Below, piece by piece: positions 2,509-8,353 of a DNA stretch of 8,353 bases. Positions within the stretch are counted from its first letter, which is position 1, and the number at the start of each line of letters is the position of its first letter. The notes beneath the pieces were generated by a model. That model was not told the origin of the DNA. It saw only the letters and a list, made by a program, of their open reading frames with translations, and made no database searches. The stretch lies in the IMG/VR virus record IMGVR_UViG_2877274432_000004. One strand, 5' to 3'. Source of the stretch: a virus (taxonomy: Duplodnaviria; Heunggongvirae; Uroviricota; Caudoviricetes). Made by a program: the position numbers and the translations under genes.

Positions 2509-2851
2509 TAAATTTCCATGTGTGACATATAAAAGCCACCAGCGCAGAAAATAAAACGCCTCACGTTATGCAAAACGGGTTAACCATCGTGATGCCTTGC
2601 CGCATTCAATTAACGGCAGGTAAAAAAATACCCGCAATGCAATAACACTACGGGCCATTAACGTAATATAAGGAGTTAACCGATGTGTATTGTATACAGT
2701 CGTGTGCATATTGTCACAGGCAACAGGCATCCGCGCCAAATACCCGCCAGAGAAAATCAGTTGATCGCCAGTATCAAAAATGGCTATGATTCCCGCACAC
2801 CTTATAAAACGGGTGTCGGGATTAGGACCCCGCTGACAATCGAGGCGATAC

Positions 2852-2874
2852 AGACGCCGAACGCGTCTTTTTTT
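2852..2874 (+). terminator. Intrinsic terminator-like hairpin plus U-run upstream of the first structured leader
   Basis: AGACGC-CGAAC-GCGTCT hairpin (2852-2868) followed by a 7-T run (2868-2874). It lies inside an open frame that starts at ATG 2683. Confidence 0.5.
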
Positions 2875-2933
2875 GTATCGGCGCACACGCACACCTTATC
2901 AATGGTGGGCTGTATGGGGCTGACTTCGGTCAG

Positions 2934-2955
2934 GCTGGTTCCCTTGATTGCCAGT
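2934..2955 (+). promoter_or_regulatory. Leader hairpin 1 (stem GCTGG/CCAGT, 12-nt loop) whose loop is complementary to the SD region of the downstream small ORF; candidate antisense/anti-SD RNA element
   Basis: Loop 9-mer CCTTGATTG (2942-2950) is the exact reverse complement of CAATCAAGG (3020-3028), which overlaps the SD AAGGAGG of the ORF starting at 3040. The stem and a downstream AACCCTGT block are conserved in the paralogous unit. Confidence 0.4.
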
Positions 2956-3039
2956 AGTCCTAACCCTGTACAGTCCACCGCCAGCGAGTTTAGGACCTCC
3001 GGCGGTGGTTACATTCCATCAATCAAGGAGGCTGCCATC

Positions 3040-3228
3040 ATGGCTACTACCCCTGCCCTCGTACATTCTCAGACAGCCTTTATCTGGCGTTTTATCACCT
3101 TTGGCACGTCAGAACGTCAAATCATCCACGTAACCGCCTGGACGGAACGCGAAGCGCGTAACCGTTGCCCGTCCGGTTTTGTCGCTGTATTCGCTGCCCG
3201 TATCCGTCAGGGGGTGAGTCATGCTTAA
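3040..3228 (+). CDS. Small protein (62 aa), paralog 1; Icd/Kil-like (phage cell-division-inhibitor-like) by recollection
   Basis: ATG at 3040 with strong SD AAGGAGG 7 nt upstream. The C-terminal 45 aa are clearly paralogous to the ORF ending at 3685 (FIWRF ... VTAxTEREAR ... VFAARIRQGVSHA versus FVWRF ... VTAATEHEAR ... VFVARIRQGVRHA). The ORF track's longer version starting at 2683 is judged to be leader, not protein. Confidence 0.55.
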   Translation: MATTPALVHSQTAFIWRFITFGTSERQIIHVTAWTEREARNRCPSGFVAVFAARIRQGVSHA

Positions 3229-3412
3229 AAACATGTTGCTCGCCTCTTCTTTCGGGCTGTATGATGCCGGAGTCGTCCACATGGCGACCGGGTTTGACAG
3301 CCTGAATACTACAGCGGACAGCCGCTTACATTCCGATATGCGGTTTTTTTGTGTCCGTAAGCCTACCCATACCCGCATTATGGCGGGGCGTAACGGGGGA
3401 GCCTTTGCGCTC

Positions 3413-3433
3413 GCTGGTTCCTGTAGTGCCAGT
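3413..3433 (+). promoter_or_regulatory. Leader hairpin 2 (same stem GCTGG/CCAGT, different loop) complementary to the SD region of the second small ORF
   Basis: Loop CCTGTAGTG (3420-3428) is the exact reverse complement of CACTACAGG (3496-3504), overlapping SD ACAGGAG of the ORF starting at 3515. Pairing extends to 13 bp with one G-U (3416-3428 versus 3496-3508). Confidence 0.4.
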
Positions 3434-3514
3434 CTGTCAACCCTGTTACGTCTCGCCACCATGTTTGACAGCGTAGTAGCGAGACTCCTTAATTTCACTA
3501 CAGGAGCCTTTCAC

Positions 3515-3685
3515 ATGGCTGTATCCGCACGCCCTTACTTTGTCTGGCGCTTTATGCAGTGCCACCACAGCAACATCGATGTATTCACCGTTACCGCTGC
3601 CACTGAGCACGAAGCACGCGCCCAGCTGCCGCACGCACATCTTGTTTTTGTCGCCCGTATCCGTCAGGGGGTACGTCATGCGTGA
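3515..3685 (+). CDS. Small protein (56 aa), paralog 2 of the Icd/Kil-like ORF
   Basis: ATG at 3515 with SD ACAGGAG. C-terminal region paralogous to 3040-3228. Stop overlaps the next start (ATGCGTGA). The ORF track's longer version starting at 3221 is judged to be leader. Confidence 0.55.
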   Translation: MAVSARPYFVWRFMQCHHSNIDVFTVTAATEHEARAQLPHAHLVFVARIRQGVRHA

Positions 3686-3992
3686 TGTGTGTAACACCAG
3701 AATACTTGAACAACTGGTTACAACCATAAAAGCAGCTGACGCACGGGAAGCGAGAGCGATGTTTGATGATGCTGACTTCTACGCCCGCAAATTGCTTGAT
3801 GGGCTGGCTATCACAGGGCGCTTACTTTCTGGCATGAGTGACAGCATTGATCCTGACATGGACGAACTACGCAGCCTTGGCGATTCCATCGCTGTTACGG
3901 CTGAGCTGATATCTGCATTCAGTGAGGTTGTGGAGGTGTACAACTGGCGTTGCCGTAACGGAGATATCAGGGCTGATTATCGCCATTCGTGA
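3678..3992 (+). CDS. Hypothetical acidic protein (104 aa), translationally coupled to the preceding small ORF
   Basis: ATG 3678 overlaps the stop of the upstream ORF (ATGCGTGA). Continuous ORF to 3992. No family recognised. Confidence 0.5.
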   Translation: MRDVCNTRILEQLVTTIKAADAREARAMFDDADFYARKLLDGLAITGRLLSGMSDSIDPDMDELRSLGDSIAVTAELISAFSEVVEVYNWRCRNGDIRADYRHS

Positions 3993-7516: not shown

Positions 7517-7616
7517 GGCTGTATGGTGTACTCTTAATCGGTAAAGCGGCACCCGCTTGTATAGCTTCCAGAAAGCGGGATGTTTATGTGGGTTCGACCC
7601 CCACCACCAGCAACCA
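7517..7616 (+). other. tRNA-like element, copy 1 (degenerate 5' half; intact T-arm plus acceptor 3' strand)
   Basis: T-stem GTGGG (7588-7592) / CCCAC (7600-7604) with T-loop TTCGACC, followed by CACCAGCA. Shares a ~33-nt block with copy 2. Not a canonical tRNA. Confidence 0.3.
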
Positions 7617-7635
7617 ACAACCTCATTGCTTTTTT

Positions 7636-7717
7636 GCTGGTGTACGCTCAACGGGTAGAGCCGGTGCCAGCCTGTACAGGCTGATCATGTATGCGGGTTC
7701 GACCCCCGCCACCAGCA
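7636..7717 (+). other. tRNA-like element, copy 2: acceptor, D-arm and T-arm are tRNA-like but the anticodon arm is replaced by a perfect 16-nt palindrome
   Basis: Acceptor GCTGGTG (7636-7642) pairs with CACCAGC (7710-7716). D-arm GCTC-AACGGGTA-GAGC. T-arm GCGGG-TTCGACC-CCCGC (7693-7709). Central CAGCCTGTACAGGCTG is a perfect palindrome rather than a 7-nt anticodon loop. No encoded CCA. Confidence 0.35.
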
Positions 7718-7921: not shown

Positions 7922-8353
7922 ATCAATGGAATAACCAATCAATTCATAGACATCCCGGGTCTGAAATTGCCGCTGTTTGACGGTGGACGGTTGAATGCCA
8001 ATCTCGAAGGCACGCGCGCCGCCAGCAACATGATGATTGAACGTTACAACCAGTCAGTACTGAACGCGGTGCGTGACGTTGCCGTCAACGGCACGCGTCT
8101 GCAAACGCTCAACGACGAGCGAGAAATGCAGGCTGAACACGTGGAAGCAACGCGCTTCACCCAGCGCGCTGCCGAGGCCGCCTATCAGCGCGGCTTAACC
8201 AGCCGCTTACAGGCCACTGAAGCCCGGTTGCCAGTACTTGCCGAAGAGATGTCATTACTGATGCTGGACAGCCGCCGGGTGATCCAAAGCATTCAGTTGA
8301 TGAAATCGCTGGGCGGCGGGTATCAGGCGGCTCCCGTCGTCGAGAAAAAATAA
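7922..8353 (+). pseudogene. 3' fragment of a TolC-family (OMF/NodT-type) outer-membrane efflux protein gene; 5' part absent from this locus, apparently displaced by the island
   Basis: Frame open from 7922 (after TAA at 7919-7921); the ORF track's first start is TTG at 7967. Translation (IDIPGLKLPLFDGGRLNANLEG ... LMKSLGGGYQAAPVVEKK) matches the C-terminal region of outer-membrane efflux factors. Upstream is AT-rich non-coding DNA, so the gene has no N-terminal two-thirds here. Confidence 0.75.

What the first reader, a model, noticed from the sequence alone, without database searches (positions are those of the whole stretch)
2669..2874. Strong SD plus ATG opens a frame that runs through an intrinsic terminator with no in-frame stop
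Seen in sequence: TAAGGAG at 2669-2675 and ATG at 2683 (7-nt spacer) start a frame that is open to 3228, yet a clean hairpin plus 7-T terminator sits at 2852-2874 inside it. The downstream part of the frame is not conserved at protein level with the paralogous unit. Inference: either a short transcript whose translation is coupled to termination (attenuator-like), or a leader peptide regulating read-through into the leader RNA and Icd-like ORF.
Basis: partly seen in the sequence, partly recalled or inferred. Interest (0 to 1): 0.4.

Follow-up and report, generated by a model that had tools for sequence, protein, structure and literature searches.

The report
P4-type eta/kil frame over immunity RNAs
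The open frame that runs through a terminator is real, but it is the already-described phage-P4 "eta/kil" arrangement, in which a long frame is laid over the satellite's small immunity RNAs so that ribosomes can carry transcription past their terminator; it is a new copy of a known device.

Summary
The interpretation needs correcting. The region is a P4-type RNA immunity module.

- **Terminator:** the hairpin ends an IsrK/"seqA" small RNA (Rfam RF01394, 59 bits). This RNA starts near 2797 from an internal promoter (2761-2790), which lies downstream of the ATG.
- **Downstream elements:** a C4/CI antisense RNA (2898-2985) follows, then an Icd/Kil-like ORF (3040-3228) in the same frame.
- **The long frame:** it is the homologue of P4 eta (Pfam Phage_ASH plus Icd-like). 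P4 eta runs through the same terminator.

In 41 distinct homologous units the frame has no stop in 39, while the other two frames carry 3-7 stops. Indels that are not multiples of three compensate so that the frame is kept. Substitutions show no codon-position bias, and AlphaFold2 predicts no fold for residues 1-124. The frame is conserved, not the protein.

The best explanation is inferred from P4: ribosomes translating an upstream-promoter transcript override the terminator and the immunity. This is a new member of a known kind.

In passing, I found a conserved candidate antisense sRNA opposite the SD/ATG.

The parts
2669..2685 (+). Shine-Dalgarno TAAGGAG (2669-2675), 7-nt spacer, ATG 2683: start of the long eta-like frame
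   Evidence: Sequence. One of only two AAGGAG-N4-9-ATG sites in the window, expected 0.34. AAGGAG and ATG are invariant in 6 related loci, although 25% of columns in the first 118 nt of the ORF vary. Two other start types in related islands also have an SD plus ATG upstream of the internal promoter: GAGGTAGCTATG and GGAGCCGTTATG.
2683..3228 (+). Long open frame (181 codons), homologue of P4 eta. Residues 35-129 match Pfam Phage_ASH and residues 133-176 match Icd-like.
   Evidence: PF10554, 46.2 bits, cutoff 26; NF033153, 54.7 bits. P4 eta hits PF10554 at 82.4 bits. 280 homologous predicted proteins. The frame is stop-free in 39 of 41 distinct units.
2761..2790 (+). Internal sigma-70-like promoter (TTGATC-18-TATGAT), the counterpart of P4 PLE. 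Predicted start ~2797.
   Evidence: Promoter scan. The same site is found in L014 and L016. It aligns with the TTGCCT...TATAGT promoter region of P4. The Rfam isrK model starts at 2797.
2797..2874 (+). IsrK / seqA-type small RNA. Carries target boxes a1 (TTAGGAC, 2822-2828) and b1 (CAATCGAGG, 2837-2845). Its Rho-independent terminator (2852-2874) is the hairpin of the finding.
   Evidence: Rfam RF01394, 59.2 bits, above the gathering score of 50. The P4 counterpart scores 60.8 bits and lies inside eta. A hairpin plus a T run of 6 or more was found by pattern in every unit examined for it, and the stems differ between unit types. Complementarity to C4 is shown.
2898..2985 (+). C4 / P4-CI-type antisense RNA, with boxes b' (CCTTGATTG, 2942-2950) and a' (GTCCTAA, 2957-2963)
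   Evidence: Rfam RF01695, 77.8 bits. Fold -42.4 kcal/mol, z = -4.2. Exact complements occur only in the cognate unit.
2990..3031 (+). Downstream targets a2 (TTAGGAC, 2990-2996) and b2 (CAATCAAGG, 3020-3028). b2 overlaps the Icd ribosome site AAGGAGG (3025-3031). This is the seqC equivalent.
   Evidence: alignment.
3040..3228 (+). Nested Icd/Kil-like ORF (62 aa), in the same frame as the long ORF. Its 5' half is C-rich and G-poor, which makes it a candidate Rho entry region.
   Evidence: NF033153. Aligned with P4 kil. Third-position excess of substitutions, 14:14:31. AF2 pLDDT about 70-77 with a beta-beta-alpha-beta pattern. GC skew -0.23 to -0.28 at 3000-3150. P4 timm lies inside kil.
3221..3685 (+). 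Second tandem unit under a second long frame. Its ATG overlaps the stop of the first frame (ATGCTTAA). It contains an isrK-like RNA (3272-3350), C4-2 (3376-3463) and Icd-2 (3515-3685), with different specificity boxes.
   Evidence: The same ATG/stop overlap is conserved in other loci.
3678..3992 (+). Next ORF (104 aa). Its ATG overlaps the Icd-2 stop (ATGCGTGA), suggesting a chain of translational coupling.
   Evidence: Sequence and ORF list. Called as a gene in related contigs.
2622..2717 (-). Candidate antisense small RNA opposite the SD/ATG. It comprises a promoter-like site at 2717..2689, a predicted start near 2682, the anti-SD CUCCUUA, and a hairpin at 2655..2630 followed by U7. Not proven.
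   Evidence: -19.2 kcal/mol, z = -2.9. The hairpin folds at -17.1 kcal/mol on the - strand against -5.2 on the + strand. In related islands 23 of 24 hairpin variants are more stable on the - strand, and 7 of 8 pairs show compensatory changes. A conserved -10 box was seen by eye in the alignment, but the promoter scan found no - strand promoter at this place in L014 or L016. No Rfam family matches.

Best explanation
The frame opened by ATG 2683 is the counterpart of phage P4's eta gene, laid over a P4/P1-type RNA immunity module.

Shown here by sequence:
- Inside the frame lie, in order: a constitutive-type promoter (2761-2790); a small IsrK/seqA RNA that ends at the hairpin+T7 (2797-2874); a C4/CI antisense RNA (2898-2985); and the C4 target boxes that cover the ribosome site of a nested Icd/Kil-like ORF (3040-3228) in the same frame.
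- Across diverged relatives the frame is kept free of stops and in register. Its amino-acid sequence upstream of Icd is not under protein-type constraint and is predicted to be unfolded.

Inferred from P4 genetics and from IsrK work:
- Transcripts from the internal promoter lack the 2683 ribosome site and are untranslated. Most stop at the hairpin, giving the short sRNA.
- Read-through transcripts are processed to C4. C4 pairs with the a1/b1 and a2/b2 boxes, which enhances termination and blocks Icd translation, so that Rho can terminate inside Icd. This is the immune, quiescent state.
- Transcripts that start upstream, from the alpA side, carry the SD/ATG. A ribosome then follows RNA polymerase through the whole module. 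Because there is no stop codon, it occludes the terminator hairpin, the C4 targets and the Rho entry site, so transcription reads on into the replication genes.
- The product that matters is therefore ribosome transit (plus the C-terminal Icd/Kil domain), not an 'Ash' protein.
For: Homology to P4:
- Rfam finds isrK (59.2 bits) and C4 (77.8 bits) in the window.
- P4 has the same two RNAs inside eta, including an equivalent hairpin+U6. Eta/kil are read from the P4 sequence.
- Both long ORFs hit Pfam Phage_ASH, and their C-termini are Icd-like.
- PGAP labels the same stretch 'ash family protein'.

Internal promoter.

The frame is maintained:
- 39 of 41 distinct units have 0 stops. The other frames average 6.7 and 3.3 stops and are never 0.
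- These units fall into 5-7 clusters at 80-90% identity, and pairwise identity goes down to 45%.
- In the 38 units tested, five length architectures (122-124 / 23-28 / 136-139 nt) all sum to 285 or 288.
- Strong SD+ATG sites exist in three unrelated N-terminal types.
- Successive frames overlap as ATGCTTAA and ATGCGTGA.

Not an automatic by-product of the RNAs: in Stx phages, near-identical isrK+C4 precede a Rha-family gene, and there the frame is closed inside isrK.

No protein-level constraint:
- Variable columns by codon position are 56:49:58 in the Ash part and 14:14:31 in Icd. They are 10:10:10 in codons 1-39.
- AF2 gives pLDDT below 50 and no secondary structure for residues 1-124.

Mechanism, from the literature:
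- PMC10111431 summarises Forti et al. 1999. Eta is translated only from the upstream late promoter, its translation prevents termination, and kil is nested in it.
- IsrK's short form ends at a Rho-independent terminator and read-through gives the mRNA. IsrK is the structural homologue of P4 seqA (PMC4825925; PMC3632133).
- P4 timm lies inside kil (PMC3177188). A matching C>G skew is found in Icd.

Cognate C4/target complementarity.
Against: - No expression data exist for this element. The promoter, the transcript ends and translation from 2683 are all predictions.
- The units are related by descent, so the 39/41 count overstates the number of independent observations. Only about 3-7 deep lineages are represented.
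- Unlike P4, where eta overlaps the end of vis, the frame here starts 175 nt after alpA with its own SD, and no upstream promoter was identified.
- An intrinsic terminator is not classically suppressed by translation unless the ribosome follows the polymerase closely. The hairpin is weak (-8 kcal/mol), so read-through may not need ribosomes at all.
- My statement that the P4 t1 terminator depends on CI RNA rests on memory of Briani et al. 2000. That paper could not be read here.
- The primary P4 papers (Forti 1999, Sabbattini 1995) were not available.
Confidence: 0.7

Rival explanations
1. RNA-only reading. The long frame is never translated. It is an accidental open frame over conserved, G+C-rich RNA genes, and the SD/ATG at 2669-2685 is a chance match. 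Pfam 'Ash' would then be a spurious protein family.
For: Everything conserved in the 'Ash' part can be explained by the promoter boxes, the RNA stems and the target boxes. There is no codon-position signal and no predicted fold. The antisense-strand hairpin and other elements also constrain the region.
Against: The other two frames carry 3-7 stops in the same RNAs. Non-3n indels compensate to keep the frame in register. The same RNAs in Stx phages do carry in-frame stops. Three unrelated start types each supply an SD+ATG upstream of the internal promoter. The SD/ATG pattern is rare in the window. In P4, nonsense mutations in eta are polar (Forti 1999, as summarised in PMC10111431).
Confidence: 0.12
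2. Real Ash/Eta protein. The 181-aa product is a folded, trans-acting regulator (a 'Bro-network' protein). The RNA genes merely overlap it.
For: The Pfam family PF10554 exists, and 280 predicted homologues are annotated as Ash-like/Icd-like. PMC10111431 files eta among Bro-network genes.
Against: Substitutions are evenly spread over codon positions in the Ash part but not in Icd. The two units in this window share no significant protein similarity upstream of Icd, although both keep the frame. Compensating frameshifts change the residues between unit types. AF2 with a 78-sequence alignment gives pLDDT of 33-46 and no secondary structure for residues 1-124. The N-termini are unrelated between island types.
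Confidence: 0.07
3. Leader-peptide attenuator. A short peptide started at 2683 senses translation and sets termination at 2874.
For: An SD/ATG lies upstream of an intrinsic terminator, with about 170 nt between them. A GGCG/CGCC alternative pairing next to the 5' arm of the terminator, seen by eye, could act as an antiterminator. In the predicted fold that stretch pairs locally, away from the terminator arm.
Against: There is no stop codon before or at the terminator, and the frame runs on for 118 more codons. No run of regulatory codons is present. A promoter and the start of the terminated sRNA lie between the ATG and the terminator. The second unit has the same terminator with no SD/ATG of its own; it is coupled to the preceding stop.
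Confidence: 0.04
4. The hairpin is simply the terminator of the upstream alpA transcription unit.
For: It is the first + strand intrinsic-terminator-like site after alpA (2305-2508).
Against: The hairpin recurs in every tandem unit, including units with no alpA upstream. It also occurs in P4 and in Stx phages as the 3' end of the isrK model.
Confidence: 0.03

Closest known systems
Satellite phage P4 immunity region: eta/kil nested genes over PLE, seqA, terminator t1, CI RNA, seqC and timm (Forti et al. 1999 J Bacteriol 181:5225; Briani et al. 2000 Mol Microbiol 36:1124; Sabbattini et al. 1995)
   Same: The order of elements inside one open frame is the same: internal promoter, seqA/IsrK RNA with hairpin+U run, CI/C4 RNA, target box over the ribosome site, and a nested short ORF in frame. 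Both long ORFs hit Pfam Phage_ASH. Both have an AlpA/Vis-type gene upstream, and replication genes follow.
   Different: Identity to P4 Eta is only 33%. P4 has 84 extra nt between the terminator and CI. Here the frame starts with its own strong SD 175 nt after alpA, rather than overlapping the end of vis. The module is duplicated in tandem with two specificities. The replication gene is a RepA-type helicase, not the alpha primase. A candidate antisense sRNA lies opposite the start.
Phage P1/P7 immI: c4 antisense RNA, a1/b1 and a2/b2 targets, icd, ant (Rfam RF01695, RF03163)
   Same: A C4 RNA is processed from the leader of the operon it controls. Its two loops pair with upstream (a1, b1) and downstream (a2, b2) boxes, and b2 covers the icd ribosome site. 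An Icd-like first gene is coupled to the next gene.
   Different: The downstream genes differ: there is no ant. The long overlapping frame is a P4-lineage feature and was not examined in P1 here.
Salmonella Gifsy-1 IsrK locus (isrK-orf45-anrP; Hershko-Shalev et al. 2016, PMC4825925)
   Same: A short sRNA ends at a Rho-independent terminator, and read-through of the same promoter gives the mRNA. A C4-like RNA (STnc1160) lies downstream, and a small ORF is translationally coupled to the next gene.
   Different: In the lambdoid relatives examined here (two Stx phages), the downstream gene is a Rha-family regulator and no long frame spans isrK. In Gifsy-1, by the paper's account, an antirepressor gene (anrP) follows and IsrK acts in trans as an activator of translation. 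That activity is not tested for this element.
Classical leader-peptide transcription attenuators (trp, his, pheA leaders)
   Same: Ribosome position relative to a nascent terminator hairpin is proposed to decide termination.
   Different: There is no short peptide, no stop before the terminator and no regulatory codon run. The decision is made by which promoter is used and by an antisense RNA, not by charged-tRNA supply.

Membership tests
Rfam RF01394 isrK (= P4 seqA RNA) | Covariance-model score at or above the curated gathering score (50 bits), full-length match | tested here: met
   59.2 bits, model positions 1-77 of 77, window 2797-2873. The second copy at 3272-3350 scores only 32.3 bits, below threshold.
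Rfam RF01394 isrK (= P4 seqA RNA) | Own promoter immediately upstream and a Rho-independent terminator as the 3' end | tested here: inconclusive
   A promoter-like site at 2761-2790 and the terminator at 2852-2874 are found by pattern and are conserved in relatives. No transcript data are available.
Rfam RF01394 isrK (= P4 seqA RNA) | Hfq binding | not testable with these tools
   Requires co-immunoprecipitation.
Rfam RF01695 C4 antisense RNA (P1 c4 / P4 CI) | Score above the gathering score (45 bits), and two exposed boxes complementary to sites upstream and downstream in the same transcript | tested here: met
   77.8 and 72.3 bits. Exact 7-10-nt complements are found in the cognate unit only. 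The exception is box b1 of unit 1, which pairs with one G·U (sequence).
Pfam PF10554 Phage_ASH | HMM score at or above the curated cutoff (26 bits) | tested here: met
   46.2 bits, residues 35-129, profile positions 1-105 of 107. The matched residues are the translation of the promoter, isrK and C4.
NCBIfam NF033153 Icd-like | HMM score at or above the cutoff (25 bits) | tested here: met
   54.7 bits for residues 133-176, and 53.6 bits for the second unit.
P4 eta/kil nested-gene system | The long ORF starts upstream of the constitutive internal promoter and contains seqA, terminator, CI and seqC, with a short ORF nested in the same frame that has its own ribosome site | tested here: met
   The same layout is read in P4.
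P4 eta/kil nested-gene system | [quoted passage not shown] | tested here: not met
   alpA ends at 2508 and the frame starts at 2683 with its own SD, after a TAA at 2677-2679.
P4 eta/kil nested-gene system | Rho-dependent terminator inside the nested ORF | tested here: inconclusive
   Only a C>G skew (-0.23 to -0.28) in the 5' half of Icd was found. P4 timm maps inside kil.
P4 eta/kil nested-gene system | Translation of the long ORF from an upstream promoter prevents termination (nonsense mutations are polar) | not testable with these tools
   Needs genetics. Indirect support comes from the frame being kept open and in register in relatives.
Leader-peptide attenuator | A short ORF that ends before or within the terminator region, with regulatory codons | tested here: not met
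   No in-frame stop between 2683 and 3226.

The most novel reading that the evidence does not exclude
P4-like islands may carry a third, undescribed RNA regulator. This would be a ~60-75-nt antisense RNA transcribed from a promoter inside codons 2-6 of the eta-like frame, complementary to its start codon and Shine-Dalgarno. It would end at a conserved - strand terminator (window ~2682 to ~2622). It would gate the translation that overrides immunity. On this reading, the 'Ash protein family' is a frame conserved only for ribosome transit.
Probability: 0.3. Interest if true: 0.55.

Novelty: new member of a known kind. Interest (0 to 1): 0.3.

Why it matters
The finding shows how a satellite or island can use one stretch of DNA in three ways: as promoter plus regulatory RNAs, as a terminator, and as a conduit for ribosomes. 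The choice of promoter then decides whether immunity applies.

For annotation, it warns that 'Ash family protein' calls, and the pseudogene flags PGAP attaches to them, describe the translation of RNA genes rather than a folded protein. It also shows that a terminator inside an ORF can be functional.

The comparative result (frame kept, residues free) gives a testable signature of selection for translation as such. The candidate antisense RNA, if real, would add a control point for induction of P4-like islands.

Tried and rejected
- **Genome-contig scans:** two scans with Icd alignments returned no confirmed locus.
- **Primary P4 papers:** PMC94026 and PMC176756 are not held. I relied on summaries in PMC10111431, PMC4825925, PMC3632133 and PMC3177188, and on memory for Briani 2000.
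- **RNAduplex on full-length RNAs:** it did not discriminate cognate from non-cognate pairs, because intramolecular structure is ignored. It was replaced by exact complement matching.
- **'Two pieces' in tblastn hits to Stx phages:** this was not accepted as proof of a broken frame. The frames were read directly instead.
- **Rfam isrL on the - strand:** 20.3 bits and 9.8 bits, both below threshold, and it is absent from other island types. I kept it only as a lead.
- **The - strand ORF 2566-2892 (108 aa, GTG start):** dismissed, because it lies over the RNA genes, matched no family, and nothing supported it.
- **Literature search for a described antisense RNA at this position:** nothing found.

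Full report
**Observation.** The window reads TAAGGAG at 2669-2675 and ATG at 2683, and a TAA at 2677-2679 closes the frame just before the ATG. The ORF 2683-3228 (181 aa) is listed. The terminator scan reports the stem AGACGC/GCGTCT at 2852-2868, with a 5-nt loop and Ts to 2874. It folds at -8.0 kcal/mol, z = -2.2. The frame passes through it as ...TPNASFFVS.... AAGGAG-N4-9-ATG occurs only twice in the 8.3 kb, here and at the Icd-like start, against 0.34 expected.

**What the region is.**
- Rfam places an isrK small RNA at 2797-2873 (59.2 bits, gathering score 50) and a C4 antisense RNA at 2898-2985 (77.8 bits). A second, weaker pair lies at 3272-3350 and 3376-3463.
- The promoter scan finds TTGATC-18-TATGAT at 2761-2790. 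This puts a start at about 2797, which is the first base of the isrK match.
- The hairpin of the finding is therefore the terminator of a small RNA whose promoter lies downstream of the ATG.
- The last 62 codons of the frame form an Icd-like ORF with its own AAGGAGG ribosome site (NF033153). Residues 35-129 match Pfam Phage_ASH. Those residues are the translation of the promoter, isrK and C4.
- PGAP labels the same stretch in a 97.8% identical E. coli chromosome as an 'ash family protein' pseudogene followed by Icd-like genes.
- The surroundings fit a P4-like or PICI-like island inserted in mdtP: integrase, an AlpA-type gene, DUF4222, a RepA helicase and SSB.

**Comparison with P4.**
- In P4 (NC_001609) the minus-strand ORF 8812-8168 gives the 197-199-aa eta from its MMM start. 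Its last 65 aa form kil, beginning MATT.
- Rfam finds isrK (60.8 bits), c4-a1b1 and C4 (74.9 bits) inside that ORF. This includes a hairpin GACGCG..CGCGUC followed by U6.
- Eta hits Phage_ASH at 82.4 bits.
- The literature equates IsrK and C4 with P4 seqA and CI RNA (PMC3632133; PMC4825925).
- It also summarises the genetics. Transcripts from the constitutive promoter inside eta terminate early and yield CI. Kil is translated on occasional read-through. Full-length eta is translated only from the upstream late promoter, and that translation prevents termination (PMC10111431, citing Forti et al. 1999).
- P4's Rho-dependent timm (X51522 8365-8209) lies within kil.
- From memory of Briani et al. 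2000 (listed as reference 47, not readable here), the hairpin between PLE and cI is terminator t1. Its efficiency depends on CI RNA and seqA, and it autoregulates CI.

**Is the long frame more than a by-product of RNA conservation?**
- A protein search gave 280 long Ash/Icd-like predicted proteins, but that sample is biased towards open frames.
- I therefore fetched 80 loci chosen only by the Icd part and analysed the DNA.
- Among 41 distinct segments running from 60 nt upstream of isrK to the Icd ATG, the Icd frame has no stop in 39. The two exceptions are the stop of the preceding Icd inside the flank. The other two frames average 6.7 and 3.3 stops and are never stop-free.
- The segments form 5-7 clusters at 80-90% identity, with pairwise identity down to 45%.
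- The distance from a conserved AAAAAC upstream of the promoter to the Icd ATG is 285 or 288 nt in the 38 units tested. The three sub-distances vary as 122-124, 23-28 and 136-139, so non-3n indels compensate.
- In two Stx phages the same RNAs, nearly identical in sequence, precede a Rha-family gene. There the frame is closed by stops inside isrK.
- Three unrelated N-terminal types in different islands each provide an SD+ATG upstream of the internal promoter.
- Successive frames overlap by ATGCTTAA or ATGCGTGA.

**Is the 'Ash' part a protein?**
- Variable alignment columns are spread 56:49:58 over codon positions in the Ash part. In Icd the spread is 14:14:31.
- In codons 1-39 the spread is 10:10:10. 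There, 25% of columns vary, against 9% in the upstream intergenic region.
- The upstream parts of the two frames in this window are not significantly similar (E = 0.16), while the Icd parts are (E = 9e-14).
- AlphaFold2 with 78 sequences gives pLDDT of 33-46 and no secondary structure for residues 1-124. For the Icd part it gives about 70-77 with a beta-beta-alpha-beta pattern.
- The frame is conserved; the residues are not.

**RNA logic in the window.**
- C4-1 box GTCCTAA (2957-2963) is exactly complementary to TTAGGAC at 2822-2828, in the isrK loop, and at 2990-2996.
- C4-1 box CCTTGATTG (2942-2950) is complementary to CAATCAAGG at 3020-3028, which overlaps the Icd ribosome site. It also pairs with CAATCGAGG at 2837-2845, with one G·U.
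- The second unit has different boxes with the same geometry, and there are no cross matches.
- Both Icd 5' halves are C-rich and G-poor (GC skew -0.21 to -0.28), as expected for Rho entry sites.

**Mechanism proposed.** The anatomy is shown; the function is inferred.
- Internal-promoter transcripts lack the 2683 ribosome site. They end at the hairpin as the sRNA, or read through and are processed to C4.
- C4 pairing at a1/b1 and a2/b2 strengthens termination and blocks Icd translation, which exposes the Rho site.
- Transcripts from upstream carry the SD/ATG. A ribosome then tracks the polymerase through the hairpin, the C4 gene, the target boxes and the Rho site, so the operon is expressed regardless of immunity.

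This is not a leader-peptide attenuator. There is no short peptide, and the terminated RNA does not carry the ribosome site. The general intuition that translation and termination are coupled is kept.

**Differences from P4.** The frame has its own SD 175 nt after alpA, not an overlap with vis. The module is duplicated with two specificities. The replication gene is different.

**In passing: a candidate antisense RNA.**
- The minus strand opposite the SD/ATG carries a promoter-like site (GTGACA-17-TACAAT, 2717..2689). It also carries an anti-SD and a hairpin followed by U7 (2655..2630).
- The hairpin folds at -17.1 kcal/mol on the minus strand against -5.2 on the plus strand.
- In 24 variant hairpins at the same position in other islands, 23 are more stable on the minus strand. 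Seven of 8 pairs show compensatory changes.
- A -10 box sits in codons 2-6 of the long frame in the alignment of these islands. The promoter scan did not report a minus-strand promoter there in L014 or L016.
- No Rfam family matches.
- This would be an antisense RNA controlling the start of the long frame. It is a candidate, not a demonstrated gene.

**Verdict.** The feature is a diverged member of the P4 eta/kil-over-immunity-RNA arrangement and is already understood in outline.

Noticed in passing
window 2622-2717, - strand: Candidate antisense small RNA opposite the SD/ATG of the long frame: a promoter-like site at 2717..2689, the anti-SD CUCCUUA, and a hairpin at 2655..2630 followed by U7. 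The hairpin is far more stable on the - strand (-17.1 vs -5.2 kcal/mol). The same layout, with covarying hairpins, is found in other P4-like island types. No Rfam family matches, only a sub-threshold isrL hit.
   Followed up: partly
window 2509-2682: The alpA-to-ORF intergenic region is more conserved among 7 close relatives (9% variable columns; 2595-2658 invariant apart from a one-base A-run gap at 2622) than the first 39 codons of the long frame (25%). It also holds a second inverted repeat, CCTTGCCG-N11-CGGCAGG, at 2595-2620. This could be a protein-binding site or an RNA hairpin.
   Followed up: partly
window 2797-3228 and 3272-3685: Two tandem immunity units (isrK-C4-Icd) carry different, non-cross-matching specificity boxes: TTAGGAC/CAATCAAGG versus TTGACAG/CACTACAGGA. 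Tandem arrays are common in related loci. One relative (L089) has a single unit.
   Followed up: partly
L018 9-2189, L011, L005 and others (loci): In many related islands the Icd frame stays open for 1-2 kb upstream of the likely start (726 codons in L018). The only Pfam hit there is Phage_ASH. Three plausible small - strand ORFs (L018 407-751, 989-1216, 1274-1453; weak RHH-like hits) all lie in the same relative frame. This could be a shadow-frame effect or selection for openness; it is unexplained.
   Followed up: partly
window 7636-7717 (and a similar sequence at about 7540-7620): Two tandem tRNA-like elements, both ending ...GGTTCGACCCCC(A/G)CCACCAGCA. Rfam tRNA scores 37.5 bits (above gathering) for the second, but ARAGORN calls no tRNA. 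By eye, the anticodon arm appears to have a 6-nt loop. The elements lie near the right end of the island.
   Followed up: no
window 7967-8353 and upstream of window position 1 (L001 1-296): The island seems to be inserted inside the outer-membrane efflux gene mdtP. PGAP marks a truncated mdtP before the integrase in the near-identical genome. By eye, the window's last ORF reads like the C-terminal part of such an efflux protein; it was not searched against any family.
   Followed up: no
L014 and L016, about 1480-1570; other type A/B loci: About 100 nt upstream of the long-frame start, other island types carry a TTGAC(A/G) -35-like box flanked by island-specific inverted repeats that look like operators. 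They appear to face small - strand RHH-like genes. This would be a repressor-type switch, absent from the window, which has alpA there instead.
   Followed up: no
L084 1537-1800, L085 (Stx phages): The isrK and C4 RNAs of Stx2 phages are nearly identical to unit 1 of this island, including the same TTAGGAC specificity box in L084. This raises the possibility of immunity cross-talk between the island and Stx prophages.
   Followed up: no
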